A DNA stretch of 62,018 nt, filler included, from Kipferlia bialata (taxonomy: Eukaryota): NCBI GenBank assembly GCA_003568945.1. It is 4 parts of 4 records of this genome, joined end to end, with 100 filler letters (N's around TTAATTAATTAA, not from the genome) between each part and the next. Parts side by side here need not be neighbours in the genome. Positions count along the whole stretch, not along the records: positions 1 to 22,887 come from BDIP01000274.1; 3 more parts are not named here. One strand, written 5' to 3'. Below, piece after piece: positions 120 to 60,684 of the stretch (positions are counted from its first letter, which is position 1; every line of letters begins with the position of its first letter). Below the pieces are notes generated by a model. That model was not told the origin of the DNA, did no database searches, and worked only from the letters and a program-made list of their open reading frames with translations. The position numbers were made by a program, and so were the translations under genes.

Positions 120-499
120 GTATCAGGGCGTCCCCAAGGCTGCACCTCAGGTATGGGAAGAAGCACTTGAACAATTGGTATTAGTGCATATGTGTTTGGC
201 TGTGTTCTCTAGCATATGTGTGTTTCATGTATTTCCAGTGTCAGTCCAAGAAGCTCAGTAGCTCCCTCTTCTCTCTCCCCCTCTTTCCTTCGCAAATATA
301 TTCGTTCCACCTCTCCTCATCAATCTCCTGTGGCTCTTGGTGCGGCATGCGAGTAGACCACCTGTCTATTTGTCTCTCTTTTATTGACATCTATACTATT
401 CACCTCTTTCTCCCATCATCTATTAGCTTCAGAGTAGTCATGTGCTTGTGCTCACTCATGTCCATCTCATTCTCACCAGGCCCTGGCCCCTTACCCAAA

Positions 500-549
<50 letters not shown>

Positions 550-3500
550 TGTCTCACCAATCAGGCACTGGCCCCGACCTGTAGCGTGTCCATCAGCCAC
601 CGTACGTGCCTTCACACTTCTCTGCCCCCCCCCCCGATTCTCATTCTATTTGTGGTATCTCTTTCTAAATCGTACTCTCTCTCATTCCGTCAATCTATAT
701 GTACATATCTATTCCTCACCCTGATGCTGGATTACTTACACACACATACATGTTCATATATATATGTATATGTACATGTGTATATGGGAATTAGAAGAAT
801 ATACACTAAGGCCCACATACATGTACATCTGTGGAGTCTCACCCCCACGTGACATTGTTCATATATACATATACATAAAGAATTGTATATACTATAAGAA
901 TTTTGTACAGTAAATATATCACCTCACCCCCAGGTGATGGTGACCCACACTTCAGACAGGTCGTGGAGACACAGGTATGTAAGAGATGTGTATATTATGT
1001 ATATCACTACACACCACTACCTCTACACCCCTTAACACCCAGTCCGGTCTCAAGCAGTACCAGAGGTTCTTTATGTACTCTCTATATATATGTTCTTTAT
1101 GTACTCTCTCTCCCTCTACACCCCTAGTTATCTCCCTCTACACCCTTACCACCCAGTCTGGTCTCAAGCAGTACCAGGTCAAGGGCAGAGAGTACACAAT
1201 GTACATTGTGGTGGTACGTATAAATATGCATATATACAAGTATGCATTTGCATATATATCCCTAACTCATATTCCTCTCTACACCCTTGAGAGAGAGTAC
1301 ACATTGTACATTGTGGTGGTACGTATACAAGTACATATATACAAGTGTGTATTTGCATATATACCCCACATTCCTCTCAACACCCTTGAGAGAGAGTACA
1401 CAATGTACATTGTGGTGGTACGTATACCCATAAGTATCCCTACACCCATATAGTCCCTATATACACAATTCATATCATTGTGGTGGTACGCCTCTCTCTC
1501 TCTCTCTCTCCCTGCCTCCTAATTCCCTCCCTGTCATTTATCATTCTGTACGTACGCCCTTATTGCCCTCTACACCCTTAATCCCCAGGTCCCTGATGTC
1601 ACCTCACCAGCCACCATCCAGGCACTCGACGCCATGCACCACAGGTATAACACTCTTTCTCTCTATTGTGGTATTTATATGAATTTTTGTATACATGCGT
1701 AAATATCTTACCCGTAGCCCCCATCCTGATTACCCTATTCTCTCTCCCGTTCCTTTTGTATCTACCTCCTATCAATGTATGTCATATATATATACAGTGT
1801 TCATCCCTAGGCTCCCCCCCCCCCATAATGATGACCCTGTATTTTGATAATACTATTCTGTCTCTCTCTCTCCTTCTATATCTATCTTCCTATCAGTATT
1901 TATACATCTCATCCCTAGGTTCCTCCCCCCCATCATGATGACCCTGTTCACAGACGACAAGGATATGGCCGGGATGCAGGTATCACTATATATGAATTAG
2001 TATATATATATATATATATATAGTATCTAGAGCATGTGCATGAAATGTATATGTACTTTTAGTTACTAATACCTGTTCACAGAGGACAAGGACATGGCTG
2101 GGATGCAGGTACAGTTCTTGCTCTCTCTCTCTCTCTCCCCCTCTACACCCTTAATACCAGGACCATGTGACCACCCACCTTCTTGTGGTGCCTGACACAC
2201 TGGCAGTCACACAGAGGACATTCAGTGCACTGCAGGTAGAGCATATTAATGCATAGTATAGTACATCCATCGTATGTATTAGAAACTGGTGATTAGTTAA
2301 GTATTATCCATTGAAGATAGTTATTATGCTCTAACACTAGTCCATCGCAAGCATCACTATCTATTTATATACTAGGCCTAGTATTATCGAATCTGTTCAT
2401 CCAGTCCATCACCAACAAGTTCCGGTCTTGTATATATTCTAGTATACCTATATATGTGTGTACATATTACATACTGTATGTACAATATATCCTCTGACCC
2501 CCAGTCCATCACCAACAAGTTCTGGTTCGGAGGCATCACCTTCCTTCAGGCCAGGGTGCACAGAGGTATGGATATATGCTAGTATATATACATTTCTATA
2601 GAATACACATGTATGTCATTCATTATATAATTGTTAATAATAATATGGCATTGATACAGATGTGTAAATTCAAGCCTCACCTTCCTACAGGCCAGGGTGC
2701 ACAGAGGTATGTATGGGTATATTTACTATACATAGCACTAGTATAGTATCATATCATGTCGATATATGTATAGTATAGTATTGATAATATGTATTGAGAA
2801 TCTATCACATTCTTACAGGCCAGGGTGCACATTCATACAATGTATATTGTTTATCATAATACTCAGTATACTATTGATGTGTGTGTGAATACTAGTCGGT
2901 GTCAATACATATCTGCACCCTAATTCCAGGCATTCCCTTCTGCCTGGGCATCCCCAACATACTCGCTTACCTCTTCGAGAGCCAGCAGGTATGGATAGGA
3001 TACATCACATCTGCTTAACTCTGTATATATTCACATGTGAGTTCTTACAACCAGGCTGATCTAGGCCGAGACATGCACCATAGTATACAACATTTACACA
3101 CACACACATATATATATACGTACATATATGTATATAAATATGATATACTAATATCCAGGCTGACCTTGCCCGAGACATGCACCAGCGCATTGGCATGTAC
3201 TACAGTGCAGACACACACGCAGCGGCATTCAAGGTATAGATATAAACCTTCTTCTAATATGTACTGGATATAATTGTGCTCTCTATTCTTACGCCCCAGT
3301 ATGCAGCTGATGCACTGAGTGTGTTTCAACAACTATGTACTTATACTTATACATTGTTGTATTACTAGCTATGGCTCTATTGAATCGTGCCTCACCCCAG
3401 TATGCAGGTGATGCCCTGAGTGTCTTCTGTGACACGTGGAACAAGTCGCAGGTAGGATATATATATGTCTATCTATATATAAGTGTAACTATATGTATGA

Positions 3501-6361
3501 AAATGCTCTATGCTACTAGTTTCTTCTGTGACACATGGAACAAGTCGCAGGTATTGAATATATATACATATATGTATATTCTATGTACACCAGTACGTTA
3601 CGTATGTTACGCCTGGAGCAAGTCGTAGGTATTGGGTGTTCACATTCATGAAACATTACTGTTTTGTTAATGAATATAATGATTAATCTGTATATCCATA
3701 TATGTATATTGGTATATCTTACCCCAGGCCTACACCCGCCTTGGTGTGTCACTGGATGCCAAGACACTCCTCAAGGAGGTAAGAATGTGCATGATGTACA
3801 TTAAGAGTTTGAATTCTATGTATACTATGTATACTGTGTATACTAGGTACGACCATTTCTATATGAGTACCATGTATGTATTACCAAATGATATATTCGT
3901 ATCTGACCCTCCCAGCAGCTGCTCGTCTACAAGTATGTACTTAATACCTCTTGTACACTACTGGTATCTTCATCGCTTCATCGCTACTCTCTTTGTATCG
4001 TGTAGGAGTCTCACCCCAGCAGCTGCTCGTCTACAAGCTCACAGGGACACCACTCATCCCAATCGGAGGTACATACAAGTATACCTGCTGTGGATTTCCT
4101 TGGTTCTTCACCAGAATTTGAGTTCTAATCTCCAGAATATGATGTTTGTTCCCATGCATTTCGGTCTCTTTCTCTAATCCCCAGAGTCCCCTGCGCAGAA
4201 GAGAGAGCGGGAGGAGAAGGAGAGAGAGATGAGAGAGAGAGAGAGAGTGCAGCAGGAGGAGAGGCAGAGGAAGGCCTTTGTGGCACTCACACCGGTGGAC
4301 CTGACACCAGAGATTGTGCTGGGTAATCTATCTCTCTACTATACTCTCGTTCCTCCGCACATAACCAGCCCATAACCGGCCCATAATCACCACATTCATC
4401 TCTCTACATATCATTTTTCCCTAGTGTATATATATTAAGAATAATTGTTTATGTTACCCCCAGGTGTCCTCCGTGCTAGGTTGGTACCAATTACTATTAG
4501 TGTACTTAGTAGATTATACATTAATATACATTAGAGCATTCCTTGAAGTAGTAAATAGTAAATTAGTTTGTATATACCTCACCCCCATGTGTCCTCCGTG
4601 CCCACAATCACCACTCGGTCAGGGCACCAGTCACACGGGCACTGCAAGGTATAATTCTTACTGTGTATAGTAATTTTCTAAACTGTGTGTGTATATGTAT
4701 TATTTCTAAACTTTGTATATGTATTAAAATATCTTATATCGTGTAATATATGGTCCATGTCAACCACTCGGTCACCAGTGAGAAGGACACTGCAAGGTAT
4801 ATATATGGTATTATGCCTGACCCTGTTGTATGTACACAAGGACACTGCAAGGTATCATACATTCTGTAATATGGAGTGTTTATCTCCCCGTCTATCCCTC
4901 TTTTTCCCTTATTGCCAGACGTGCTGTCCTCCCGCCGTCCCACCGCCCCCATCCCCGGTCATGCCATGCTCATACTGTGGGGGGCAGAGAGCCAGGTAAA
5001 TGTGTACTATATACACATGTAGATATATATATATATAGTATAGTATAGTAACGTATGGTATACCCCATCCCCGGTCATGCCATGCTCATACTGTGGGGGG
5101 CAGAGAGCCAGGTGTGTATAGTATACATGTATATATAATGTACTATTGTATACTCCATACCGTGTGTAGTAATACACCCTTGCATCAGGTCGGCGTGTCC
5201 CACCTGTATGGCCATGTCCCGATCATTGTTACTATCATATATATCTATCTAAATATATATCTATATACCTACTAGTGTATATATACCTTAACCCTCAGGT
5301 CGGTGTGTCCCACCTGTATGGCCATGTCCACAACAGTGGGGTCACGGCATCAAGTCTCATGGCTGAGGTACTGTATGTGTTCATGTATATATATATATAG
5401 TATATGCTGTTGTATGTGTATAGTGTCATATACAAGTATGTGTCCACAACAGTGGGGTCACTGTATATGTATATATATTAGTGTAAGGATTAATATATAT
5501 ATATATATATATATATACTATATGTCCACAACAGTGGGGTCACGGCATCAAGCTTAATGGCTGAGGTACTGTATGTGTGTATGTATATCCCTTCTCTCTA
5601 GTATACTTGGATATATGTATTCCAAAATACTCTCTCACAATATATATCTCCCTCTAGCCCCCCACATGCCCTTATTACCTTCTCTCCCCCCTCCCCCTCT
5701 ATATATATACAATTGTATATACACATATACATTTCTATATATATGTATACGACCTCACTCCAGCCCACCCCCCATGCCCGAGTTGCCTTCTCTCTCTCTC
5801 TCTCTCCATCTCTCTATATAGTATACCCTTCTTACACTAGCCCACCCCCCATGCCCGAGTTGCCTTATCTCTCTCTCTCTCTCTCCCACTCTCTCTAATA
5901 CCAGCCCACCCCCCATGCCCGTGTTGCCTTCTCCTCTGCTGCTGTCATGGACATGGACAAGGTGGCACTCAAGAAGGTATGGAGTATATGTATTATAGGT
6001 ATATTATATATATATATAGTATATATCATTAATGAATTATATATAGTTGTATATACTGCCTTCTCCTCTGCTGCTGTCATGGACATGGACAAGGTGGCAA
6101 CAAAGAAGGTATGATATACATATTCTAACTAAGGTATATATTTGTATAGTATTATACTATATGTATATTACTCCTCTGCTGCAGTCATGAACATGGACAA
6201 GGTTGCGATGAAGAAGGTTTGATATATGATATATATAGAAATATATGGCTCCTGTAACGTATACATCCTTACCCTCAGAACGCCCTTGCCGCTGAGCCCT
6301 ATGCAACCATGGCCAGACGGATAGGAGAAGTACTCACAGAGGTAACATTATATATACACGC

Positions 6362-6392
<31 letters not shown>

Positions 6393-9300
6393 GAGAGAGA
6401 AAGAGGGAGAATCTATGCCCCCATGGTCGCGTAGGAGATGTACTGACGGAGATATATATTGTATATATAATAATCATGTCTTCCAGATATTTCTCTTTAT
6501 CAGTAGAATTGCACTTACCACTGGAAATTTTTAGTATACTTTTGGCTCACCCTTCCAGTGGGCATCTGCCTCTCTCAAGGTGTCATTGATATCTCTCCCA
6601 TCAGATACGGGTATATATATCGATATCTTTACTCTTCTAACCCCCAGTGGGCCTCTGCCTCCCTCAAGATATCCTTCATATCATCTGCCACATCGTATAT
6701 GCATGTGTATTTATGTATATATCCGTCGTCTCACCCTTCCAGTGGGCCTCTGCATCCCTCAAGGTGTCTGTGGTTATAGCTGGCACCATGGCAGACAGTG
6801 CAAAGTGAGTATTTATACAGGAAATACGATAGAATTTATATGGAACATATAGTATACAGTATAGAGAGAGATAAGTGTCATAGCTGGCAAGATGGCAGAC
6901 AGTCCAAAGTGAGTATATAATAGTAGTATATAGTATATATAGTGAATATAGTACATATAGTACATATAGTACATATTGGTAATATATACAATAATATGTA
7001 TGAATACGCACTGGCCTTGGGATGCACTTCAACATAGCCTCTCTCTCTCTCTCTCGCTTCCATTATAATAATAATATGCTGGGTATCCTCTGACCCCAGC
7101 TGGCGCACTGGCCTTGGGATGCTGCTGCAGCCCTTTGGCAGTGCATGTGCACACGACATCACAGACGAGGTGTGTATACAAATGTATATATGTATTAGTA
7201 TACATTGGTATTTCCTTTACTCCGAGGATTTGTTCTCATCTTTGGACGTTCCCATCATTGCTCAATACTGAGTATTTGCATTTTCTATAACATTAAGATG
7301 TATATATATATGACTTGTTTACATCTGATTATCAGGACCTCCTCCCCTTCCTTGGCCGTGCCGCTGACTACATATCTGGCATGGACCTGCCCACATTCCA
7401 CACAGACAGTAGGGTGGCTAAAGGTACGTTATATGGTGTGTTATGCATTTGCAGTGTGTTACACCTCCTTCTAGCTCTAGCGAGCCCCTAAACCTCTCTC
7501 AGTATGAGGTTATAGTGGTATTTGTTCCATCTCTATAATCACTTTCCCTTTCCGCCAGTCACCTCCTCTGCCCTGACAGAGCAGATTTCTGTCTCTCTTT
7601 CTCTCTCTCGCACCAGACCATGCTGTCGGAGTCACTGGGGAGACTGGCCATACTGCAGGTGTGTGTATAGTATATATACTCTAGTAATAGTTGTGTGTCA
7701 TAGTGTGTTTTGCTATTAGAAACATGCTGTGTGAGTCACTGGGCAGACTGGCCATACTGCAGGTATTTGCAGTAAGTATCATGTGTTATATACTCTATAT
7801 AGAGCAAGACAACGATATGTGTTACCAGACGATGCTGTTAGAGTCACTCGGCAGTAAATATATATAGATTATACATATAGTATTACATATCTAGGTGTTA
7901 TATATCTAGTATGTTCATTCATTTTGTAGAAAATAGAGTCTATACAAAACCCAAATGCCCCACCTCAGGCCCAGTCTACCAGGGCTAATACAGTATATTG
8001 TCATACATTATATAGAGATGATAGAATATGCTCCCTATTAGTGCTGACCCCAGGCCCAGTCTGCTGCGAGGGCCAAGGCTGACAGCCAGAAGAAGAGAGA
8101 GGAGGAGAGGGAGAGAGAGAGAGAGGAGGAGAAGAGAGAGAGAGAGAGAGAGGCGCAGGTGGCAGCTGAGAGGGAGGCCAAGGCTGCCCAGAAGGTGTGT
8201 AGTAGTGTACATTTATACATGCTATGTACTCCTATATGTATAGCAGTACTGATACCGGCAATATCCCAACACTATATTTGTGTGTATGGACAGATATATG
8301 GGTTTATACTGACCACAGGCGAAGGCCAAGGCCGCCCTCCTGGAGAGGGAGAGAGACACTGAGGGAGAGTATGGCGAGACCGACTACATTGAGGACTTCA
8401 TCGACATGCTCTTTGATGCATTTCCACAGGTATCTACGATATATATAGTATATACACTACATCGAAAGTTGGTAGATAGGTTGTCATGTTATTCGTGTTT
8501 ACATATTAATTAGACTTCATCGACATGCTCTTTGATGCATTCCGACAGGTACTATAAGTTTAGAGTATATATACTAAATTGACGAATCTTTATCTACAGT
8601 TCTATTTGTGTTATATAGGACTTCATCGACATACTCTTTGATGCATTCCCACAAGTATCTAATGTACTGTGGTTGGTAGATGTGCAGTTGTGCTAGTCGT
8701 GTATATATTGTACTAACCGATTGTCGATGCATTCCACAGGTACAAGTAGTAAACGTACAATTGAGGGTTTGCTGAGAGTACATAGACGATTTGTATGGTA
8801 TCTTCGTTGATGCCTCTATATATCTTGGAATATCACTCTAGGCCAGCGACAGATATGGGCGATGTTTAGTATGCATCTGTTTCGTATTGTAATATTTGCA
8901 CACATTTTTGTATATACCTTTTATGGATCTCATTCTAGGCCACCGACAGATACCCCCCTGATCCCTTCCCCCAGGAGGTCGTCATACCAAAGTGAGTCTG
9001 TGTGCATATACTGTCAACGTATGTATACCTACTTCCTCTTTCTTTCCACAGGCCCTTATATCAGGTCCACCCTCTATCTTGTTGTGGGTGCCAGATACAA
9101 CGACCAGGAGGCACTCACGGACAACCTGACCGGAGTCGGAATCAGGTATTCCATATATATAAAAAGTATTGTAATATATGGATGTATCATGTATATTATA
9201 TATATACATATATTATGTACGATGATCAGGAGGGACTCAGAAACAACCAAACAGGGGTTGACATTAGGTAATGTACATGCAATATTTCAGTATTATACTA

Positions 9301-11317
9301 CTTCATATTCTGGGGCTCGAAGCATTACCCTCCAGTGCTATATATCCACACCCATAAGAAGGTATGTATACCCTAGTTGTGACGTCTAAACCTAACATCA
9401 GCGTGAGGCATGTCCGTGCGAGTGGTGGCCAGATTGAGAAGATTAGCCAGGGCACAATCAACAGGGCTCAGTGCATAGGTATATATATACATATATATAT
9501 CTATATAATGCTATTATTCTATATTACTCTATATACAATATATACATACTTACATACATACATATGTATACACAATCCTCTCTCCTTCTCTCTCTCTCTC
9601 TCTCCCCCTCTACACCCTTAATGTCAGTCCTGAGTGTGGCTGGTCTGTCCGGGTATGGGGTGGATGCTCTGATAGCTGGTCTCATCAAGACACAGATGGA
9701 AGGGAGGGTACGACATATATACATACATCTATATATATTCAGAAGTATGTATCTCTGAATTTTTGTATACTTTGACTGGTCTCACCAGGACACAGATGGA
9801 GGGCAGGGTATGTACCCTCTCTCTCTCTCTCTCTCTTCAATCTCTACACTCTTTTACCCTGTAGACCATGCACCTCTTTGCCTCTAGGGGTGTAGTGCTC
9901 ACAAAGCCAGAGATCACACCTCTGCACTCGTTCATCGCTAGAGGTACCTAGTCGTTAGTCTTTCTCCCGTCACCTTGTCAAATTCTATTTTCTCTCTCTC
10001 ATTCATGTTTCTAACCCTCCAGCTACCGTGTCCAATGACCATTTCCACCTATTCTCTCTCTCTCTCTCTCTCTCACTCTCTCACTCTCTCTCTCTATATA
10101 TATATAACTCACATCAGCCACCGTGTCCAATGACCATGTACACCTTCTCAACGACATGCACCAGTGCAAGGAGATTGTGGCCAGACAGGTACATAGATGT
10201 ATATATATTGATGTATTATTTACACGAGTGTCAGTATGGTATAGTGTGTATATATAACTATGTATCTTCTGAATGACATGCACCAGTGCAAGGAGTTAGT
10301 CGCAAGACAGGTATACATATATACATAGTGGCATATCTATATCCTGTGTTGGTGTATATATATAATAGTATATTATTATATATATATATATACCTTTTTG
10401 TTTGTTATATGTATATTGTGTTATATTTAGTATATATATATTTAGTATTGGCTAATACATATATATTGTGTGGCCAGACAGGTATGTATAGTACTTAGAG
10501 ATGCATCATATATATTCAGTGATACAGATGATGCTAGATGTAGAATGTTACTAGACAAGTTAGTACTGTATCTGTATACGAAAGAATGAGGGACTCAATG
10601 GGAACCTGTGTTTCTGTCTCTCTTTACGGTATTTTCACTATTTTAGGTGTATCTTCATGCCCTAATCTGTATCGTTACTGACATTCAGCTCATTGACGAG
10701 GTCCGCATAGAGGCAACCCACACCGACCCCAACCTGAGGTACTGTGTATACTTTGTATGTGAATTTATATATATTGTATATTATGTATATTTTTTATACT
10801 GTATATATTTATACTTAGTATGTAATGTTTCTTGTCAATTGTTCTTTCATACGAACACTGAATGTAGTGTATATACACGATAACATATTTAATCGGGCCC
10901 CTCTAACTTCAGGATGTCAACACACACATATCTTGGTATTTAAGTAATTGTTCATTGCACGGTTTTCTAATAACCACAGGACCATTGTCAACAGGCACAT
11001 TGCCCAGCAGAGGCAGAGAGAAGAGGAAAGAGAGCAGAGGCGCATTGCTGAGCTTGCAGAGACTGGTTCCAAGGCTGACTTTGTCGGTCTACCTCTACCC
11101 ACCACTGCAGCTAGGTATACACGCACCCATTATATATATCTCTCTCTATATATATAGATAGAGATACACTCTGCCCACCACTGCAGCTAGGTATGGTCTC
11201 TCTCCCTCCCTCTGTTTCTCAATCTACCCACTAACCCCAGCCCCTCCCCCCCCCAAGTCCCTGCCCCTCCCTGTCATATATTGATTATATCCTTAATACA
11301 TATATATACATACATAT

Positions 11318-11354
<37 letters not shown>

Positions 11355-12346
11355 TGTATACATATACATATACATATCTAACCCCAGCCCCTCCCCTCCC
11401 AAGTCCCTCCCCCTCCCTGTGAATGGAGTGCTCAAGAGGAGTGCCAATCCCCCTCTCTCCTTACCCATACCCGGACTGGCATCTACAACATCTACCTCAG
11501 CTGCATCTACCTCAGCTGCTGTGTCGAAGCCTCTACCCCTACCTGGCACTGGTGCAACACCTAGTACAAGTGGTGCTGTAGCTAGTCCCTCCCTCCCTCT
11601 ACCCACTGGGACACCAGCATCTACAGCTGCCACTGCACCTCTGCCCCTGCCAGTGTCCACATCAATTAGTAGTGCTACTGCTACTCCAGCTGCTGGTGTT
11701 GCAGCAGCTGCAGCATCACTTACTAGGTTAGTCATCTACCAGTGTCCACCCCCAATGTATATGTTGTTACTGCTACTGCTCCAGCTGCTGGTGTATCTCT
11801 CACTAGGTTAGGTAGTGTAGTTTCAAGTACTGCAGCTGTATCCCTTACACGGTCAATCATACTAGTATACATGGAGAACATTCTAGTATTAGTATCAGTC
11901 TAGAGGTCTACACAGATAGTACAATACTGCATGTTGTCTCACCCCAGCAGCGTCCCCACCCTTCCTGTCTATGTCTCCCTATACACTGTGCATATATATA
12001 TATACATACTCATACTCGATATCTTTAGCTATACATAACACACTTCTAACGTCAGCAGCGTCCCCACCCTCCCTGGCTCTGTCTCCCTGTATGGCGGTGC
12101 AGCACTGCGCTTCCTGAACAAAGTGAGGGAGTCCACAACTAAGGAGGGAGAGAGAGAGGGAGAGAGAGAGGGAGAGGTTGTGGCACTTGTCGTGGTACCA
12201 GATTGTATTAAGGGTGCAGCCGAAGAGAATAAGGGTGCAGCTGAGTATGTACAGAGAGACATCTTGGACATGCTGGGTGTGATGGCAGTGGAGGTGGACG
12301 TCAGGCTAGGTAATGTACCATACCATATATATACTCTATATGTATG

Positions 12347-12377
<31 letters not shown>

Positions 12378-15300
12378 GTGATGGCAGTGGGGGTGGACGT
12401 CAGGCCAGGTATGTGCTCTGCCCTAACCCCCCACGCCACCTCTCTCTCTCTTCCTCGCTATATAGGTATATGTATATGTATGTGTGTGTGTATGTTCCTT
12501 ACCAAAGGTCTCTCCACCGTCCTGGGTCCCAAGACTTCTCTTGACTCCCCCTGTGTCCTTGTTCTGCCCCAGTCAGACGTGGAGGGACTCGACAACGGGG
12601 GGACAGAAGCAGGTATGAGGAATATATATATTGAAATATCTCATTATATACATACGTACAATATGAATATTTTGTATTCCTTACTCAAGGCCACTCCCTT
12701 CGTGCTGTCTCCGAGTGCCTGTCCTCTGTGTCATCTGTTCTGGCACCCACAAGTGTGTCAAGGGGGGTATACGCAGGTATTGTTAGTATATATGTAAATG
12801 GTGAGTATACTCCAAGTGTGTCTTCTGTGCTGGTACCTGTCACTAAGGGGGTATATGCAGGTATATATGGCGTGTAGGCTAGCACGCAGTACTAATACGT
12901 GTATATATATTTGTCTCACTCTTCTCACTCTTCAGCCCTCCACCGAGTGGACATGCGCTCTCTGCACCTATGTCTGTTCAGTTCCTTCAGACCCCTTACC
13001 CACTCTGCTACCCAGTCTGACGGGTGTGACAAGCCGTGTGACAAGCAGTCTGAGGGGGTCATTCTACAGCAGTGGACAGCCGCATGCCTCACCAGCTACA
13101 CTCCTGAGGTATGTATAAGAGTGTATATATAGTTCTTATATATATATATATGATATGTATACATTGAGGTAAGAGTATGTGTGTGTCTGCATATATATGT
13201 ACTACTGTGATTGTTGTTATGGTTGTAATATATGTATACTTACAGTAGGAGGAGCCCTGTGACATGACGCCCTCTGCCCTGTGGCCCAAGAAGACACAGC
13301 CACTCCCACTGCCAAAGGTATATATGAAAGTATCAATACAAGTACTGGAATATATATTATGTACATATAATACCCTCTGCCATAATAGTATACATATATA
13401 GGCATGTGTAGTATATGTATATATATATATATATATATATAATACCCTCTGCCCTGTGGCCCAAGAAGACACAGCCACTGCCACTGCCTAAGGTGTGTGC
13501 AATAGTATACACATATATACATGAAAATATGTAATATATATTATGCTGTCTACCTATATACTTACTATCAGGCCCTCTCCCTGCCCTCTGCCCCCTCCAA
13601 GATATATATGAACATCCTCCTATTGATATGACTATAGTACCTACTGACTCCTGATACCACCTGCTTCTCTCTAATCATTAGGCCCTCCCCCTGCCCTCTG
13701 CCCCCTCTCCATAGTGTTGTTACTCATATTCTGTATTTCTCTTTTGTAATGAATTACATATCATATATCTATAATTACTTACTGTCAGGCCCTCCCCCTG
13801 CCCTCTGCCCCCTCCCCTTCCAAGGCACCACTCCCACGCAGCAAGGTATGTATACGGAGTAGTAGTTGTAGTTCAAGAATGACATTAGACTGTCATCTAT
13901 CCAGTGACCCAGGTCCCCTCGCCCAATATTCATATTCTGTTACGTATATTATACACTCACCCCTAGGTCACCTCCCCCCTTGCCCAGTCCGTGTCACTGG
14001 CAGAGGACATACAGCCACAGGTATATACGTATGTATGTGTATAACCGTCGGCTCTATATGTATGGCTCTTGTTAGTATTTGTTACTCACCCCTCAGGTCT
14101 GGGAGGCATTTGAGATGACATTAGCTAGTAAATGGTTTTTTAAAATATAGAAAATGTGTATAGTAATGTACCCCCTTATCTGTAGGTCTGGGAGGCATTT
14201 GAGATGCCACTGGCTACTGTTATGTAATTGAGTCAATACACTATATATATATATATGTATTACATGTATATACATAAGTTCACTCACCCCTTAGGTGTGG
14301 GAGGCCTTTGAGATGCCAGGCTCAGCCTCCATGTTCGATGTCAGGTGTGTACATGTGTACAATTGTGTACATTCATTGTGTATATTAATATGGTATTAAC
14401 TATGGTATTTCGACGTCAGGTATGAAGTCATCTAAATTTGTGTGTATACTATTTGTATACTTCCTATTGACTATGTAAAAGTGACATATTGTATATCTAC
14501 ATCCCGTTAACCCTCCAGGGACGTCTCCTCCCGCATCGACCAGGACCAGGATATACTATTTACTGCCTATATATATACTCTCTCTATATATTACACCCTA
14601 TAACCCCTAGGGACGTCTCGTCCCGTATAGAGCAGGACCAGGAGATCAGCAACCAACCAGTACCTGCACCCGGCAGAATGGCAGGTTGGACCCTTATTAT
14701 ACACAGACTACACCCTTAACACATATACTAGACCCTTTTGTCATGTTTACTAAACCCTTCACATTCCAGACAAGACTGAGTCCTCCCCTGCCTCCGAGGC
14801 AGAGTCTGATAATTTCATTTCTTATAATACTGTATCTTTAATATTGTGTTATGCTATACCCTTACTTTCAGACAAGACTGAGTCCTCCCCTGCCTCAGAT
14901 ACTGAGTCTGAGTCAGTAGAGGAGGAGGAGGAGGATGTGCCTCTCATGCCCAGGGAGCCATACAGGTATCATATCTTTATGTGTATGTTATATACTCATA
15001 TATACATAATACTCCATAATACAGTAAGCTTATATACATGTGCAAATTACTATCAATATCATGCCCAGGGAGCCATACAGGTATTTTAAGACATTTCATG
15101 TGTTATATACTATATGCATAATACTCCACCACCCAAGAGCCTCTCATGCCAAGGGAGCCATATAGGTGTCTTAACATGTTATATACGTTACACACATATT
15201 ATACTATTATATATGAGTATATATGAGTATACTACCAGGGTTCTCTGATGCTAAGGCCCAACCCCTAGCTGAGAGGGATGTCCTCAGCATCAATACACAC

Positions 15301-16312
15301 TCATAGTATATACTATACTGTATATGTATGTATGTATTGTGTATGTGTGACCCTAATTGCTAGGCCCAACTGCGTCCCCCTGTCTGAGAGGGATGTCCTC
15401 AGCATTGATGCCACGGACAAGAAGGACAGGGCAAGGCTGGCCATAGCTAAGGTAGTTTATATATACATATCTGTATCTTTATCTATATATACATTATGTA
15501 GTAGTATATGTGTATAAGTATCGATGCCACGGACAAGAAGGACAGGGCTAGGCTGGCCATAGCTAAGGTAGTATATATATATATATAGTATGTATAGTGA
15601 TATATGGTATATANNNNNNNNNNNNNNNNNNNNNNNNNNNNNNNNNNNNNNNNNNNNNNNNNNNNNNNNNNNNNNNNNNNNNNNNNNNNNNNNNNNNNNN
15701 NNNNNNNNNNNNNCACAGGTATATAACTGTTATATATAAATGTAGTATAATATTGTATATATATATATATGGTATCCATGGTGCAATGAGTGACAGATTG
15801 ACAGGGGGAGGCAGCAGAATACCTAATTGTTACAATACAGGTATTTGTGTAGTATATGTGAGTATGTGTTACATGTATGTTTTTCAGTATTTTGCATGTT
15901 CTATATCCATGAGTGCTAGAGTCACAGGGGGCGATACCATGATACCCCCGCAGTATAGTACATTATATATACACATTTGAATAGTAAGTACTCGCATAAT
16001 CGTCTATCCTCATTCCAGGCTCTGCCACCCCCCAGCATGCCACGGTGTGTGACAAGGAGCACAACATGCTGACTGACTGCCCAGTGCTATTCGTGCACGA
16101 GGAGGATGGGGATTGTACGTATAGTAGTATGTACACAATCACTCACTCAATTGTATATGTAATTAGTAATTGCATGGATATGCACATATTTGTATATATA
16201 TATTTGCTGCCCTGTTTGTACATGAAGTAGGTGGAGGTTGTACGTATATATATATACGTATATATAGATATATATAGATATATTAGTATTTGTAATTGGT
16301 CCATCCCCGCAT

Positions 16313-16347
<35 letters not shown>

Positions 16348-19300
16348 TGCACTCCATATATATAGCAGACTCCTTCCATATCTCACCTCACCATCAGCCC
16401 CATCCCTAGTCGAGTCCCTCAAGTACAAGTACCATGAACATATATGAGTGTATAGATGTTAATGCATTTTAAATGTATATACACTATGTATATACCCTTA
16501 ACCCCCAGCCCCCTCTCTAGTCGAGTCCCTCAAGTACAAGTACACAGGACACCTCAGCCAGACTCTCCTGAAGGTATGGATCAATATATAGATCCTTGAT
16601 AGTTCATCATCACTAAATCAACTGCTATATATTAATATACACATATTTGTTTGTATACATATATGTACGGGGCGACTCAACCAGACCCTCCTGATAGTAA
16701 GAGACAATGTGTTGACTCTGAACATAACCAATCAATTGATGACCATTCATCAAATACCAAATGATCAAGCAGGAAATTGATTTCTCTACTTTCACAATCA
16801 ATCAATTGATGAATATTCATCAATTAATCACTCAGGAGATGGTCCAGACTGGCAGGGTGAGCCCTGTCCTCAACAGACAGACGGGGCAGTACACAGTGCA
16901 CGATAGCAAGCTGAGGTCATATGGATATATAGCTACTGCAATATTACATATACATAGCATACACATATATTGTATGGGACAGACAGGCCGGACAGTACAC
17001 AGTACATGACTCAAAGCTCAGGTATATATATATATGCATGTATACTATATGACATATATACTTGAGTATTAGTATTGTTTGTATTGAACAGACAGACAGG
17101 GCAGTACACAGTCATGGACTCTAAGCTAATGTAATTGTACTCTCTCTCTCGCTCTCTCTCTATATATATCCCTCTACATCCTTAATACCAGGGTGCGTGC
17201 CCTCCCCCTAGGCAGAGGTGTCAGCTCAGTGCTCTATGACAGTCCTCTACCTGTATCTCCAGATGGAGAGGGAGGTGGTGTCAAGGACCCCGAGCCCTCT
17301 CCCATGCCCAACGACTCGCCATTCGACCTGAGGTATTAGTGCACTAATTGTATATACTCTATATTTGTGCTGGGGTATTCTTATATGTGTGTACCCCATG
17401 CCCAACGACTCAGGTAGTCTCTCTCTTTTATCTTTTCTCTCTCTATAATAGTATTGTGATATCTTACCCCGGCCACCTGGCTGATATGGACAAGGAGAGA
17501 GAGAGCATTCATATATGTATATATTACACTCATATACATATCTATAGAAACGCATACATGTATATATTTTGTGGCTAACTCCAGCCACCTGGGTGACATG
17601 GACAAGGACAGGGAGAGCATTCACCTATATATATATATATATATATATGTAAATATACACGCGGGTGTATCTATATGAATACAGATGTCTCACTCCAGCC
17701 ACCGTGGTATTGTATATTTAGATGTATATATATATCAACACCTAACCCCAGCCACCTGGGTGACATGGACAAGGAGAGGGACAAGGAGGCTGAGACTGAG
17801 ACCTGTGAGTGCATGGATGACATTGTACTGGTTGTAGTAGAGAGGGAGATGATGTCAAGGCTGTCACCTATGGTTAAGGTACATATGTATTATGTATATA
17901 TATACATATTCATATATTATTATATGCATGGATGACATTGTACTGGTGGTGGTGGAGAGGGAGATGATGACACGGCTCAGCCCTATGGTCAAGGTATATT
18001 CTGAGATATATATCATACATATCCTATATATAGAGTAATACATCTATATATCGATGACATTGTACTGGTTGTAGTAGAGAGATGATGGGTAGACTCTCTC
18101 CCATGGTCAAGGTAGACTAACCTATAATGACAAAGCTCAGTCCAATAGTATAGGTTTACCAAAACATTCTTATATATGTATAGACCATCGCACGTATGGT
18201 TCTAACTCTAGGCCTGCCTGTCCCGCCCTGTCGTGTCTCTGCTCTGTATATATACACACACAATCATATGTATAGACCTGAATATATTAGTATATGTATA
18301 CATTAAGTGTTGTCTAACGCTAGGCCTGTCTGTCCCGCCCTGGTGTGTCTCTGCTCTGTATCGATAGGGCACCCATTGTCAGCAAGACAGTGTCCAAGGA
18401 GGACAGGGAGAGAGGCGTCGCCTCAGAGGTATGTATCGATACAATTCATATATATGTATATATATGTATACACACACACACATATATAAAAATATATATA
18501 TATATATACACAATATATATTTATACGTCCATGCAATGAGAGCTTCAAAGAAGGACTGAGAGAGACAGGTTGCCTAAGAGGTACCATTTCTTGACGATAT
18601 GTCTACATACCTACTGCATATGCTCTATCTGTACTCACCATCAGGTCCTGTCCCTGCTGACCTCTGTGCATATATACCTCTGTCGATGCTATATATACTT
18701 TAGACTGTATATATCAGTATCTAACTTGTAGGTCCTGTCCCTGCTGACCTCTGTCATCTGTAGTATACAACTTTTGTATATATATATATACCCTGGAATA
18801 TAGTATACAATAACTACTATGTGTCTTCTGACCATCAGGTCCTGTCCCTGCTGACCTCTGTACATAGATATATATACTATCGACTGTATATATCACTATC
18901 TAACATGTAGGTTCTGTCCCTGCTGACCTCTGTGCATAGGTACAGGGAGGGTAAGGCGGCAGACCCCTGGGTGGACAGATGCGTGGTGGCACTGCCTAGG
19001 GTGGATGCAGAGGTATGGGTATTGTGTATACAATACAGTTTGATATGTCTTACCCCAAGATCTCTCCCTGAGGTATATGCCATATATATATATATATGTA
19101 TATCATATGTATAATCAATGAGCAAGTATCTTATCAACAGGACCTGCCCCTGAGGTCAGTGGCTGAGGCAGTGGCAGAGGACAAGGGCGCTAAGGTATAG
19201 TATACAGTGTGTGTAGCATATATGAGTATATGATATAGATGTGATATTCTATGTTATGTGTATATGTATGGCAGAGGCAGTCGCAGAGGACAAGGAGGCT

Positions 19301-20485
19301 AAGGTAATGTATTGCATATATTGCATCTTCACTTGACCTCTATTGACCTTCCTTGACCAATATTGACCCCCCAGGCCCTCCAGCCCTCCTTCATCAGTCG
19401 TGTCGACAGTCTCCCCGGACGTACTAAGCCTAGTAGGAAGAGGAGGATATACACCATAGAGCAGATGCTGGAGTGGGGTGAGTAATGTATATATAATATA
19501 TGTATGGGGGAGGGGGGGGGGAGAGAGAGAGGAGGATATACTCTGTGGCACCTATGCTCTGGGAGTAGTTGTTGTATGTCTACGTATATATATGTGCTAT
19601 TCATAGTGCCTCACCCCAAGGTGCCATGCCCGAGAGCTGGAGACCGCCCACTGTGGCATCACCGCTAGGTACAGTCTGTCTCTCTCTGTCTCTAAATACA
19701 TCACTATATATTTACATTACTATATATACATTGCCACACCTCTCTTACCCCGATAAGTATGTGTATTATTTCTATATACGTTATACCCTTCCTCTCACAG
19801 ATACATATATATTACAACATCATCCATCTCACCCCCCAGGCATGGATGGTGAGCTAGAGGTTGTTGCTGACGGAGAGGGAGAGAGAGAGGGCGACATCCT
19901 CCAGAGATTTGTGGTACGTGGCTCTTCTTCTACACCCTCAATTCCTCTCCTACACCCTTATATCAGGTTCCCGATACTGAGGAGAGCTACAGAATGCTCT
20001 ATCTGGCCCAGGTCGCCAACAAGTACGAGTAGTAACTATTTCATATTTATATTATATATTATATATATTTTCTACATACATATAGATATGTAATATCACA
20101 TTGGTTTGACCCTGGTGTAGATAGTGTATTAGGTATACTTTTATGCATCTCTTATCTTAGGTCCGGTCCCCTCCTCGCCAAGGGTGCCTCCATCCCTTTG
20201 CAATAACTATCCAATTGCATATATACATTAATATAGTATAGTATATCTCTTACTGCTAGGTCCGGTCCCCTGCTTGCCAAGGGTGCCTACCTTATTACCC
20301 AATAACATAGTACATATTAATAATAGTAGAATGTATACATCGGTGTATATATATCTCTTATCCTAGGTCTGGTCCCCCTTGTTATATTTTCTTTCTATAG
20401 TAATAGTATATACATTAATCCTAGGTCCGGTCCCCTACTGGCCAAGGGTGCATCCATCCCAAAGCCACCCAGGCACAAGAGGTAG
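120..20485 (+). CDS. Large multi-exon (~60 short exons) hypothetical protein, 5'-partial, with Glu/Arg-rich and Pro/Ser/Thr-rich segments
   Basis: Hand-spliced GT-AG exons are mostly phase-consistent, e.g. 934-974 (RDGDPHFRQVVETQ), 2505-2565 (SITNKFWFGGITFLQARVHR), 8319-8429 (...DFIDMLFDAFPQ), 17752-17878 (...MMSRLSPMVK), last exon 20425-20485 (SGPLLAKGASIPKPPRHKR*). It crosses an N gap at 15614-15713 and a few junctions (near 240, 4589, 7559) are uncertain. No domain recognised. Confidence 0.75.
1040..1490 (+). repeat. Half-exon echo cluster around exon SGLKQYQVKGREYTMYIVV (1157-1213)
   Basis: Upstream cag|tccggtctcaagcagtaccag at ~1040-1063; downstream agagagtacacaWtgtacattgtggtg|gtacgt at ~1292 and ~1391; cattgtggtg|gtacg at ~1476. 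Confidence 0.95.
15614..15713. other. Assembly gap (100 N) inside the large orphan gene
   Basis: Run of N without the linker motif. Confidence 0.95.
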
Positions 20486-20816
20486 AGGTATAGGTAGAGA
20501 TATGCTCTATACTCTTAGGGAGAGGGAGAGAGAGGAAGTCTTTTAGAGAGAGAGCCACCCAGGCACAAGAGATAGAGAGGGAGAGAGAGAGAGACAGAGA
20601 CAGAGTCAATCCACCCAGACACAAGATGTAGAGAGGGAGAGAATTCAAGACTCTTGTCTATAAGATTGTTGAGGTCTGGGGACTCTCAGTGTGTAGTAGT
20701 GATCGTCATATATGGTTTTTAGAGAGAATGGTACGAATAGATTAGTTAGTTTAATGTGTCTAATCATCAGATTCTATTGAGCTTGATGGGCTTTGTGCTC
20801 TATTATATCTAGCATT

Positions 20817-21843
20817 TCAGTGGAAACAAGACTTCATCAGATCCTCCACACTTGGTCTCTGTTCTATAGGTCCTAGACACCTATCAACAAGAGCAGTCTC
20901 GGCACCAGACAGTGATGTCTCGTCCAAGGTCTAGTGTCAGTCATGAAAGTAGCATGAGAGACTATACAGCAACCCTGGCTCAAACAATATTGCTTAAACT
21001 GTGTGAAGCCTAGTATTACTAGGCTAGTAAGTGACTAGGCTTGTACTAGTAAGCAAGACGTGCCTATAACACAGTGGGTATTGAAACTACACTGTGTAAC
21101 CGAACTGAAGTCTCCCGCTAAGAGATACACACTCTTCATACCTGTAACTCGAGATAAGAGTATCTCACTCTTTCTCTCTCATATATATAGTGAGATGGGA
21201 CTCAACACTGTAAGTTACACTGCAGAGTATATACATATACTATACTAACACATACCTGTAAGTCTGAGCCTGGATCCAGTGAGTCATCACCTGGAAATAG
21301 CCTAAGCACTATCCTGCCATACCCATAGACATCAGCTGCCACATCCACTGGATCTACACCCTTCGTGCCGGACTCTACAGACACATCAAAGTCAGTAAAC
21401 ACTACACGAGGCACATTACCATCTCCATCATGAGATACCAGTATGTTCTCAGGCTTGATATCCATGTGACATACTCCCCGTGTATGCATATCTGCTAAGG
21501 TCTCTAACACACGTCTTGCTATCCCTCTCCTTACACTCACACATGGCCTATACTCTGTCAGATACTGGTCTAGATCTGAGTCTAGTCTCTCAAGCACAAG
21601 ATACGCTCTATGGCTACCATCCTCACTCTCTTCTAGTAGGTACCCGTGACAATATACAGTGTAACGACTGCCCTGCATTATTGAGTGGACTAAGAGCTCC
21701 CTCTGTAGCTTGAGAGACTGCTGAGGTTGTGACAAGTCATACTCCTTGAGCATGACATGTCCATATGCAGGGTGGGTACCAGTGTGAATGGTTGCCCTAC
21801 CAGTGGAGTGGTGTGGATGGGGGGCAAAGTCACTCAGTGACAT
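20817..21843 (-). CDS. Divergent Ser/Thr-type protein kinase, 2 exons (21843-21256, 20930-20817)
   Basis: VMLKEY (beta3 Lys), YLVLERLDSDL, HMDIKPENILV catalytic loop, DFD, ADVYGYG. The second exon follows acceptor ctgacactag and encodes LVDRCLGPIEQRPSVEDLMKSCFH*, matching subdomain XI. An upstream exon is possible. Confidence 0.85.
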
Positions 21844-22826
21844 GTTCAGCTGATACCTATCACACTCAAAACCAAGGGTAGGCGGAGAGTCAACCAGACC
21901 TGGCGCTGCGAATGTGAGTTAATTGATTTCTTGTATATAATCTATGTTGAAACACATGCTATAAATGTCTAAAGTAGTGAGAGCGAGAGAGAGAGAGAGA
22001 GGGTAGGGGGGAGGGTGGGGGGGGGGGGTCTCAATAAACAAAAGAGTTCGGAATTAGTGGCTTTCTAAATAGTATATACTTCGGAGATACATTAGCTCGG
22101 AAATACAGAATGTGATTGTGTCACTATACTTGTCACATTGATATGTATGGTACCTTCTGACTCAGAATATGCGCTTTGCACCGTCGGAACAGACCAGAAT
22201 TCCTCTTCCTCACACAACTCATGGTCTATCCTGTACTGTTCCATTCATGTTCTCCCCAGATATATATGACTGGTAGATAAAGCGTGCTTCGACGAAGCCC
22301 GTCGTGACAGTTAACAGTGAGTGAGAAAGGGTGCAGTACATAACGATAAACATTGTTTTCACGTTTTTGAGTGAGGGGTTCAGTCACTCTACAGCTCGTC
22401 TGGTAGCGGAGAGTGGTGGCGTTCCTTTCACCCTCTCACTGTGTCACCTTAGCCCTATCTGAAAGAGAGAGATGTCCTGCACGGCAGTAGCTGGCCAGGA
22501 GCCCGAGGATGCAGAGGTGTGTAGCAGTGTGCGTGTGTGTGTAGGGAGTGAGCGGTTGATTAGCGTGTCTACTGTGTGGGACACTAAGTGGTTGAATGAG
22601 AGGGAGGGGGACACTGTGTGTGTTCACTATTTACCGTTTATGCTTCTTTGAACTACCCTTGGATAGGATGTTGTGTAGTAGTGTAGTAGTGTTGGAGCCA
22701 GACCAGTCTGTCCTACTTACTCTCTACACAATCACTTTCCATACATGTACCGCTGTCTTAATCTTCATCTTACACCCTATCAGAGTGTGTTTCTAGTTTC
22801 TGGGTTAGTGGAGAAGTCCGGGATAT

Positions 22827-22887: not shown

Positions 22888-22987
22888 NNNNNNNNNNNNN
22901 NNNNNNNNNNNNNNNNNNNNNNNNNNNNNNNTTAATTAATTAANNNNNNNNNNNNNNNNNNNNNNNNNNNNNNNNNNNNNNNNNNNN
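22888..22987. other. Artificial scaffold linker (44 N + TTAATTAATTAA + 44 N)
   Basis: An identical 100-nt construct with stops in all six frames occurs three times in the window. Confidence 0.97.
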
Positions 22988-23229
22988 AGATACCGATGTT
23001 GGTTTAAAGTACATATTTGGAGGTTTTACACCACACCAGTGCTATAACTGACACCAATAGGGTGTGTAGGCACCTCCAAAGTGTATATATAATTATATAA
23101 TTTTTATATATTCTCAATTTTTATATATATAAAAAATATATAGCTCGCCCAGCCCTAAAGCCCACCCAGTACTGCTATACACCTCTGTCAGCTAGTTATC
23201 AGTAGAGACCCTTTACTGACACCCACACC

Positions 23230-24165
23230 ATGTCCAGTATCGATGTACACATATCCAACCTCCCCCAACAAGTAGATGCTCTTGTGCGCATAGGTGACGA
23301 CCAAGCACTGGTGATAGGAAAGAACCCGGACCCACACATAGAGGGAGAGTGGATATATGTCTCAGTGGTGCTCACACTCCTATGTGATGGTACCATAGAG
23401 AGTGAGGCACCAGTGCTCTGCCCTATTCCCGGATCTACTGAGCAAGTCTCTGCATGTGCTCTGGGCAACGATGTGTATGTGTTTGGTGTACTATATACAC
23501 CAGAGAGAACATATATCAACGACATGTATCTGTACACCACAGACATGGGAGAGTGGAGTGTGGTACCTAAGGTAGGTTCTTGCCCACCTGGTGTGTTTCA
23601 GCTATCAACCTTCTCCATTGACGGTATCATATACCTGCGCGGACACACACCCACCCCTCCCTATAGAGTTGAATTCTGGAGGTATACGTCAGATACCAGT
23701 TGGGAAAGAGTCATGCTGTCAGAAAGGAGCGGCGTAGATGAATTCTGCTGTTGTGTCACGGTGCAAAACAGAGCATACCTGATTCACATAGTATTTGGGG
23801 GAGTGAGCATGTTCACACCTCCTGCGTCCTTGCAAACTGAACATACGAACCTGAGAGCAAGCATTCTGGCAGCAGTGGTGTATGGGAGGTGTGTAGTTGC
23901 TACAATACGGCATCTGTGGCACAATGCACCAACAGAGTACATTGACCATGTGTATGATACTGTATCAGGTGAATGGGTACACTCTCAAGAGTCGGGGTGG
24001 ATGGACATATGTAACCTGACTGACTATGGCTGGCACATATGTATGATAGGGCCTAGCACTATGCTCGTATCTGCCTCATGTTACGGAGTGGTATTTGATA
24101 TGGATTTGACACTGGGGGAGAAAGAGAACACAGAGATGGACGTATGGTTTGAGTTGACGATATAG
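23230..24165 (+). CDS. Intronless kelch-type beta-propeller-like protein (311 aa)
   Basis: Clean ORF with kelch-like blades: VSACALGNDVYVFG, MYLYTTDMGEWSVV, FWRYTSDTSWE, HVYDTVSGEW. Confidence 0.8.
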   Translation: MSSIDVHISNLPQQVDALVRIGDDQALVIGKNPDPHIEGEWIYVSVVLTLLCDGTIESEAPVLCPIPGSTEQVSACALGNDVYVFGVLYTPERTYINDMYLYTTDMGEWSVVPKVGSCPPGVFQLSTFSIDGIIYLRGHTPTPPYRVEFWRYTSDTSWERVMLSERSGVDEFCCCVTVQNRAYLIHIVFGGVSMFTPPASLQTEHTNLRASILAAVVYGRCVVATIRHLWHNAPTEYIDHVYDTVSGEWVHSQESGWMDICNLTDYGWHICMIGPSTMLVSASCYGVVFDMDLTLGEKENTEMDVWFELTI

Positions 24166-37443: not shown

Positions 37444-37474
<31 letters not shown>

Positions 37475-38703: not shown

Positions 38704-38741
<38 letters not shown>

Positions 38742-39627: not shown

Positions 39628-39673
<46 letters not shown>

Positions 39674-59653: not shown

Positions 59654-59753
59654 NNNNNNNNNNNNNNNNNNNNNNNNNNNNNNNNNNNNNNNNNNNNTTA
59701 ATTAATTAANNNNNNNNNNNNNNNNNNNNNNNNNNNNNNNNNNNNNNNNNNNN
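59654..59753. other. Artificial scaffold linker
   Basis: 44 N + TTAATTAATTAA + 44 N. Confidence 0.97.

Positions 59754-60649: not shown

Positions 60650-60684
<35 letters not shown>

What the first reader, a model, noticed from the sequence alone, without database searches (positions are those of the whole stretch)
16836..18115. Serine codon-family switches (AGY/TCN) between an exon and its echoes
Seen: in GQYTVHDSKL the intact exon reads ggg cag tac aca gtg cac gat AGC aag ctg. The echo at ~16990-17021 reads gga cag tac aca gta cat gac TCA aag ctc, and the echo at ~17100-17129 has gac TCT aag cta. In RLSPMVK the exon reads agg ctg TCA cct atg gtt aag, the echo at ~17973 reads cgg ctc AGC cct atg gtc aag, and the echo at ~18091 reads aga ctc TCT ccc atg gtc aag. 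Established: TCN/AGY exchange needs at least two substitutions. Inference: these copies diverged close to synonymous saturation under protein-level constraint, deeper than ordinary heterozygosity would give.
Basis: partly seen in the sequence, partly recalled or inferred. Interest (0 to 1): 0.82.

Follow-up and report, generated by a model that had tools for sequence, protein, structure and literature searches.

The report
Introns stacked with old exon ends
In the protist Kipferlia bialata, many introns hold stacked, spliced-out copies of the neighbouring exon's end that differ from it mostly at silent codon positions, and these are likely leftovers of other gene variants added by faulty DNA repair between diverged chromosomes.

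Summary
They give two independent serine-family switches, not four. The echoes are real DNA: single DNA contigs at even depth (368-420) span exon plus echoes, and an RNA contig splices across them. The gene is K. bialata KIPB_001825.

The feature is window-wide: 128 echoes at 61 of 101 exons. Upstream echoes are the exon's 5' end with its AG, and downstream echoes are its 3' end with its GT. Units are about 110 nt, and about half of this gene's intron DNA lies in them.

Echo-versus-exon pN/pS is 0.23-0.31. Copies simulated as dead from birth give 0.44-0.58, so echoes once coded. They no longer do: 15 of 128 carry stops or frameshifts. Similarity ends about 8 nt into the intron.

The four echoes in the finding are the deep tail (pS 0.52, window 0.24). 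Saturation is overstated in general.

Most likely mechanism (inferred, about 0.5): a break in an exon is repaired from a diverged allele, copying runs into its unrelated intron, annealing fails, and end-joining leaves the old exon end behind. No donor allele was found.

The parts
121..20482 (+). Host gene: K. bialata KIPB_001825 (hypothetical, partial, 1610 aa), 57 coding segments; no Pfam family passes its cut-off
   Evidence: 100% identity; tiled on the window, no echo used as an exon; Pfam
16836..16915 (+). Intact exon (EMVQ...GQYTVHDSKL), Ser = AGC
   Evidence: RNA contig piece; open frame; deposited protein
16916..17191 (+). 276-nt GT..AG intron holding two 3'-end echoes, each followed by an unused GT
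   Evidence: RNA joint 16913 to 17190, skips 276 (table 5)
16979..17021 (+). 3'-end echo 1; Ser = TCA; 6 of 13 codons differ silently, 1 differs in amino acid
17080..17130 (+). 3'-end echo 2; Ser = TCT; H read as M
17192..17332 (+). Intact exon (VRALP...PFDL)
17395..17411 (+). Short downstream echo of the 3' part of exon 17192-17332
17473..17502 (+). 5'-end echo of exon 17752, acceptor changed to CGG
17585..17614 (+). 5'-end echo of exon 17752 with an intact, skipped CAG acceptor
   Evidence: RNA contig pieces 17190-17330 and 17750-17876 are adjacent in the record (table 8)
17752..17878 (+). Intact exon (HLGD...RLSPMVK), Ser = TCA
17925..17993 (+). 3'-end echo; Ser = AGC; 22 of 23 residues unchanged, 7 codons differ silently
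18050..18111 (+). 3'-end echo with a 4-nt deletion; its first half matches the exon, its last codons are strongly diverged
18212..18254 (+). 5'-end echo of the next exon (18324-18428), in the same intron

Best explanation
The echoes are intronic copies of exon ends that are spliced out of the main transcript and were likely the working exon ends of earlier alleles, likely left behind when a break in an exon was repaired from a diverged allele and finished by end-joining. Inferred steps: (1) A break falls inside an exon. (2) One end invades the homologous exon of a diverged chromosome, the only place with enough homology. (3) About 110 nt are copied, running over the splice site into that allele's dissimilar intron. 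(4) The copied tip cannot anneal back and is joined to the other broken end, probably by polymerase theta. The product is: exon with a new end, a piece of foreign intron carrying the needed GT or AG, then the old exon end and its intron. The leftward version gives 5'-end echoes upstream. Repeated events push older echoes outward and lengthen the intron by about 100 nt each. The spliceosome keeps using the donor and acceptor nearest the intact exon (shown for this gene), so the products are tolerated. Shown: physical reality, skipping in RNA, polarity, unit size, silent-site excess, age gradient. Inferred: the donor alleles, the repair route and the enzymes.
For: Real DNA: contigs 16355-17129 (depth 399.6) and 17664-18442 (396.8) each span exon and echoes; all 8 listed DNA pieces have depth 368-420 and 0 other letters. 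Skipped in RNA: joint 16913 to 17190, and record-adjacent exon pieces; the spliced path is open over 11 exons. Polarity: 45 of 55 upstream echoes follow AG and 63 of 73 downstream echoes precede GT. Spacers are half-introns: 71 of 73 downstream spacers start GT, and 53 of 55 upstream spacers end AG while 1 starts GT. Formerly coding: 4-fold sites differ at 0.20-0.33 and non-degenerate sites at 0.04-0.07 for every base; ratio 0.23 against a simulated 0.44-0.58, lowest of 225 runs 0.29; the same 0.23 in the deposited-model gene alone. Now dead: 15 of 128 have a stop or frameshift, and amino-acid changes are no more conservative than random (229 of 1000 null draws as high). Intron flanks behave like those of diverged homologues: above background for about 8 nt (0 of 2000 permutations), near background beyond, even beside an echo with 0 differences in 42 nt. 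Unit length median 110 nt, IQR 99-125. Nearest echo more like the exon in 19 arrays, farthest in 5, 10 ties (p=0.007). Echoes leave at least 15 nt of exon uncovered in 121 of 128, 7 exceptions against about 35 expected, as a homology arm would. No nearby copies in 116 windows of six long open frames. Precedent: failed SDSA annealing plus polymerase-theta joining gives tandem duplications of about 100 bp to 10 kb in C. elegans (PMC8654963, passages). Metamonads lack Ku, fornicates lack Rad51A and use Dmc1, and K. bialata lists PolQ (PMC8516963, section 8 and supplement rows).
Against: No donor allele was seen. There is no second copy in protein searches, no relative in metagenome contigs, and no variant letters in the DNA contigs (which lays only matches of 95% or better and uses contigs that drop variants). 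Echoes nearly identical to the exon beside unrelated introns need exon-limited homogenisation or fast intron turnover, which is assumed. Some units are plain whole-unit tandem copies including the intron (8 of 127 flanks with z above 2.3). Echo-echo pN/pS is 0.38 with CI 0.23-0.65, which does not exclude 0.5. Third-rank and farther echoes give 0.79 (n=10, CI 0.21-3.16). Junction microhomology was not tested. K. bialata has XPF and Msh2, which could trim the unannealed tail. The DNA run may be the window's own source, so it is not an independent sample.
Confidence: 0.5

Rival explanations
1. The echoes come from diverged alleles by another route: unequal crossing-over at exon-only homology, or single-crossover integration of a small circle or fragment made of exon end plus intron piece. 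Arrays then grow by mispairing between units.
For: It explains the silent-site excess and unrelated flanks equally well. It fits the whole-unit copies seen in some arrays, such as 18676-18754 against 18854-18933 at 89%, and mosaic echoes such as 18050.
Against: Crossing-over needs a first echo to mispair with. It does not by itself predict a narrow 110-nt unit or the uncovered exon arm.
Confidence: 0.2
2. These are ordinary in-place tandem duplications across splice sites. Intron parts were then scrambled by dinucleotide slippage, and silent sites in the exon changed several times faster than the echo.
For: Polarity follows automatically from tandem duplication. Spacers are 30% GC and rich in TA repeats. 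The age gradient fits. The echo-echo ratio CI includes 0.5.
Against: With equal mutation rates the simulated ratio is 0.44-0.58 and never reached 0.23 in 225 runs. It needs the exon to change about three times faster than the echo while the echo's own intron flank becomes unalignable. Where a unit is clearly a whole duplicate, intron and exon parts diverge alike (18732 against 18911). Two serine switches are not expected.
Confidence: 0.14
3. The echoes are remnants of whole duplicated exons that were once used as alternatives (mutually exclusive exons), or are still used in minor transcripts, and later lost one end.
For: It explains silent-site excess and diverged introns without foreign alleles. 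Two echoes cover nearly a whole exon (uncovered 0 and 2 nt). One downstream copy at 7829 has an acceptor.
Against: The RNA contig skips the echoes. Only 8 of 128 could be reached by an in-register AG|GT. Exons of 254 and 341 nt have echoes of 33-36 nt. The lost end nearly always faces the intact exon. Alternative copies at 61 of 101 exons would be extreme.
Confidence: 0.1
4. Assembly artefact: haplotypes, paralogues or a second strain were laid in tandem by the assembler.
For: The genome paper reports two k-mer peaks read as diploidy (PMC5874029). The DNA run may be the source library.
Against: 0.99 of sampled 31-mers are in the run. Separately assembled contigs cross exon-to-echo junctions at the same depth as their neighbours. 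Up to five copies lie on one side of an exon. No full-length second copy was found.
Confidence: 0.04

Closest known systems
Tandem duplications from abortive SDSA finished by polymerase theta (C. elegans helq-1, brc-1; PMC8654963, passages seen) and aborted SDSA in Drosophila (PMC8951532, passages seen)
   Same: Direct repeat made from the stretch copied during repair; the smallest reported sizes are about 100 bp; needs alternative end-joining.
   Different: There the usual template is the sister chromatid, so copies would be identical; sizes centre on 1 kb and events arise in repair mutants. Here copies differ at silent sites, are tied to splice sites, have unrelated intron parts, are about 110 nt, and fill about half of a gene's intron DNA.
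Intron gain by tandem genomic duplication of AGGT (PMC3443670, passages seen)
   Same: Exon sequence ends up duplicated inside an intron without changing the protein.
   Different: No new intron is made. Existing splice sites are duplicated and introns lengthen. Only 8 of 128 echoes have an in-register AG|GT.
Direct repeats near splice sites and intron gain at repaired breaks (PMC11782384, abstract seen; PMC3443670)
   Same: Direct repeats at exon-intron borders attributed to break repair.
   Different: Those are 4-30 bp (mean 11.4) and lie at the two borders of an intron. Echoes are mostly 20-50 nt, stacked up to five on one side, and keep codon structure.
Mutually exclusive duplicated exons (e.g. 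SCN-alpha exon 5a/5b; bioRxiv 10.1101/2025.08.16.670673, search listing only)
   Same: Tandem exon-like copies under protein constraint with diverged introns.
   Different: Echoes are half exons with one splice site and are skipped.

Membership tests
Abortive-SDSA/TMEJ tandem duplication | Head-to-tail direct repeat in the genome | tested here: met
Abortive-SDSA/TMEJ tandem duplication | Both copies identical over the whole unit at birth (sister template) | tested here: not met
   Intron parts are at background beyond about 8 nt even for near-identical exon parts; about 8 of 127 units are exceptions
Abortive-SDSA/TMEJ tandem duplication | Microhomology or templated insertion at the junction | not tested
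   The donor intron is unknown, so overlap cannot be told from chance extension
Abortive-SDSA/TMEJ tandem duplication | Dependence on polymerase theta | not testable with these tools
   PolQ is listed for K. bialata in PMC8516963 Supplementary Data 2; dependence untested
Intron gain by tandem duplication of AGGT | New intron bounded by duplicated AG|GT | tested here: not met
   8 of 128 reachable in register; RNA uses the original sites
Mutually exclusive exons | Each copy has both acceptor and donor and is near full length | tested here: not met
   126 of 128 leave 12 nt or more of the exon uncovered; spacers carry one splice site
Mutually exclusive exons | Copies appear in transcripts | tested here: inconclusive
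   The main RNA contig skips them; contigs cannot show rare isoforms
Introner or transposon-derived introns | Family of near-identical intron sequences at unrelated sites | tested here: inconclusive
   Among 12,013 pairs of acceptor-side 30-mers the best unrelated pair shares 28 of 30 and the next share 24; only this window was available
Haplotype or paralogue concatenation artefact | Junctions absent from reads, or pieces at half or double depth | tested here: not met

The most novel reading that the evidence does not exclude
Kipferlia introns grow mainly by an undescribed, genome-wide process in which recombination between deeply diverged alleles swaps in new exon ends and stacks the old ones inside introns. 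Each intron is then a layered archive of extinct alleles, and direct evidence of genetic exchange between distant lineages in a free-living fornicate.
Probability: 0.4. Interest if true: 0.9.

Novelty: new variant of a known kind. Interest (0 to 1): 0.76.

Why it matters
It would give a concrete mechanism for intron length growth: about 97 nt per echo across 95 introns (r=0.75), and 53% of the intron DNA of this gene. It would record past alleles and recombination between lineages in one genome of a fornicate. It shows a reduced spliceosome (87 of 174 proteins, PMC6679479) choosing the exon-proximal sites among near-perfect decoys, which points to exon definition and offers thousands of natural test cases. 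It links the loss of Ku and Rad51A in fornicates to a visible genomic signature. It also warns that gene finders can mistake echoes for exons, as my low-penalty run did.

Tried and rejected
No whole genome is held for this window, so all counts come from 62 kb. A search with the Kelch-like ORF at 23227 found no homologue among 429 candidates, and exact look-ups of three ORF translations found none. Metagenome scans with P0001 and with a kinase stretch matched 30 and 92 patterns, none confirmed. P0002 (E 9e-5) is an unrelated tandem-repeat protein. No RNA holder is on record as RNA: X2 is a guess, although its contig shows GT..AG joints. RNA-run bins lying wholly over echoes had no cover; that is not used as evidence except where a contig joins across. 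Base composition was rejected as the cause of the third-position excess. A rise of silent differences toward the splice site was looked for and is unclear (pS 0.28, 0.30, 0.20, 0.21, 0.31 by distance). Rows dropped: 17 of 145 alignments before the codon counts, namely 9 at exons of unsure frame, 5 GA-repeat hits, 2 internal hits, and 1 whole-unit overlap. Frames for the 46 exons outside KIPB_001825 come from my own gene finder only. Earlier scan notes returned nothing. Literature searches found no description of this architecture; the library lacks most subscription papers, so absence from print is not established.

Full report
Setting. The window is intron-rich eukaryotic DNA. It consists of four segments joined by N44-TTAATTAATTAA-N44 linkers. 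An exon at 12057-12308 matches K. bialata KIPB_001825 (P0001, 1610 aa) at 100%. That protein tiles onto 121-20482 and agrees with all 55 exons I had modelled there, and with all 53 frames I had assigned; it uses no echo. It has no Pfam family above cut-off.

Observation. Three exon-echo pairs cross the serine families, which amounts to two independent switches. They are the only ones in 109 Ser-Ser pairs, against 0.00-0.08 expected per simulated data set. The four echoes have pS 0.52 and pN 0.07, while all echoes together have pS 0.24 and pN 0.055. The finding is therefore the deep tail of a general pattern. That a family switch can arise through a double-base mutation or a brief non-serine intermediate is recalled, not from a call.

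Is it real DNA? Run X1 holds 0.99 of sampled 31-mers of 16400-20500. On 15720-19900 its contigs cover 16355-17129 and 17664-18442 as single pieces, so they cross the exon-intron-echo junctions. All 8 listed pieces have depth 368-420, with no other letters or gaps. X1 may be the source library and contigs drop variants, so this rules out tandem placement by the assembler but not a hidden haplotype below 95% identity. One contig of X2 (RNA by guess) joins 16913 to 17190 across GT..AG, and its pieces at 17190-17330, 17750-17876 and 18322-18426 are adjacent in the record. The spliced path is open in one frame over 11 exons. The echoes are thus intronic and skipped in the main transcript, together with intact decoy GT and CAG sites.

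Anatomy. Aligning 101 exons to their flanking introns gave 145 hits; 11 of 987 unrelated controls reached the cut-off. After dropping 17, 128 remained at 61 exons, on three of the four segments: 70, 53 and 5. Upstream echoes are exon starts (45 of 55 after AG) and downstream echoes are exon ends (63 of 73 before GT), with median lengths 30 and 37 nt. My filter kept anchored hits, but the dropped ones were of unsure frame, low-complexity, internal or a whole-unit overlap; one downstream copy at 7829 has the opposite polarity. The spacer between copies is half an intron, with GT only downstream and AG only upstream. Units are 110 nt (IQR 99-125). Intron length rises by about 97 nt per echo, and 7,523 of 14,232 intron bases of this gene lie in echo units. 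The nearest echo is the most exon-like in 19 of 34 arrays, the farthest in 5, with 10 ties. Only 7 of 128 echoes leave under 15 nt of the exon uncovered, against about 35 if free ends were uniform. Six long open frames show no such copies in 116 windows.

History written in the differences. Four-fold sites differ about five times as often as non-degenerate ones, for each base. pN/pS is 0.23 (0.18-0.29), or 0.31 (0.25-0.38) with extension to the splice site, and 0.23 in the deposited-model gene alone. A copy dead from birth beside a perfectly constrained exon gives 0.44-0.58 with the same detector, lowest single run 0.29 of 225. So echo and exon diverged while both encoded protein. The echoes are dead now: 5 carry stops and 11 frameshifts (15 of 128 in all), and their amino-acid changes are no more conservative than random. 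Intron flanks are alike above background for about 8 nt and then fall to near background, including beside echoes with 0 or 1 difference in 40 nt. This is the profile of two diverged alleles or orthologues, not of a fresh tandem copy. Against this reading: echo-echo pN/pS is 0.38 (0.23-0.65), the ten outermost echoes give 0.79 with a wide interval, and 8 of 127 units are recognisable whole-unit copies.

Mechanism (inferred). A break inside an exon can pair with a diverged homologue only through exon sequence. Copying about 110 nt carries the end over the splice site into an intron with no match at home, so annealing fails and end-joining attaches the tip to the other broken end. This single route yields the polarity, the half-intron spacer, the unit size, the uncovered homology arm, the silent-site excess, the outward ageing, and the absence of copies in long exons, where annealing would succeed. 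Joining of an extended SDSA end by polymerase theta makes tandem duplications in C. elegans (PMC8654963, passages), and aborted SDSA ends in alternative end-joining in Drosophila (PMC8951532, passages). Metamonads lack Ku and fornicates replace Rad51A with Dmc1 (PMC8516963, section 8); K. bialata lists PolQ, Dmc1, Msh2 and XPF (supplement rows; one supplement file was unreadable). That Dmc1 tolerates mismatches is recalled. The weak point is that no donor allele was found. Donors would have to be other lineages, or a haplotype these tools could not see.

What is known. The genome paper reports 124,912 introns and k-mer evidence of diploidy, and has no occurrence of 'duplicat' or 'heterozyg' (PMC5874029: parts 1-3 of 6 read, whole text term-searched; supplements not seen). 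Intron gain by AGGT duplication (PMC3443670, passages) and short repeats at intron borders (PMC11782384, abstract) differ as listed. Eight searches found no account of such arrays, within an open-access library.

Verdict. A real and apparently undescribed intron architecture. That the echoes are real, intronic and formerly coding I put at about 0.85; the specific repair route at about 0.5. Interest 0.76.

Noticed in passing
window 22888-22987, 45873-45972, 59654-59753: N44-TTAATTAATTAA-N44 linkers: the window is four separate scaffolds joined, so gene order across them means nothing.
   Followed up: yes
window 2131-2160, 9598-9627, 17162-17191: Unrelated introns share near-identical 3' ends (28 of 30 and 24 of 30 bases), which may be ectopic spread of intron ends or a favoured motif.
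   Followed up: partly
window, 156 acceptor sites: A loose branch-point-like motif (Y-T-V-A-Y) starts 10-12 nt before the exon in 97 of 156 acceptors, so the branch point sits almost on the 3' splice site.
   Followed up: partly
window 33264-45520 (- strand): Intron-rich gene with 53 scored echoes in its segment, up to five on one side of an exon; motifs INGDF, CHGH and GHTH suggest a metallophosphoesterase (recalled, not tested).
   Followed up: partly
window 4464-4648 and 7559-7658: Exon-like pieces with odd splice sites: a CAT where an acceptor is expected near 4590, and a CT-repeat stretch near 7590. The deposited model skips or reads through them, so it may be wrong here.
   Followed up: no
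window 24755-28042 (- strand): 843-aa ORF with a carboxypeptidase-regulatory-like domain below cut-off and 150-300-nt internal repeats at 75-84% identity, unlike the echoes.
   Followed up: partly
window 21202-21918 (-), 59913-61819 (-): Two protein kinase genes: the first matches Pfam Pkinase; the second looks like a DYRK/PRP4-type kinase by recalled motifs and has few echoes.
   Followed up: partly
window 23206-24165 (+), 56122-57009 (+), 57800-58678 (-): Single-ORF genes of about 300 aa; the first is Kelch-like with no homologue found.
   Followed up: partly
window 53990-54120 (+): Reads ELAQNADDA, resembling the start of a sacsin-type ATPase (recalled).
   Followed up: no
window 16723-16826: A 34-nt intronic direct repeat (85%) unrelated to any exon, just upstream of the finding.
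   Followed up: no
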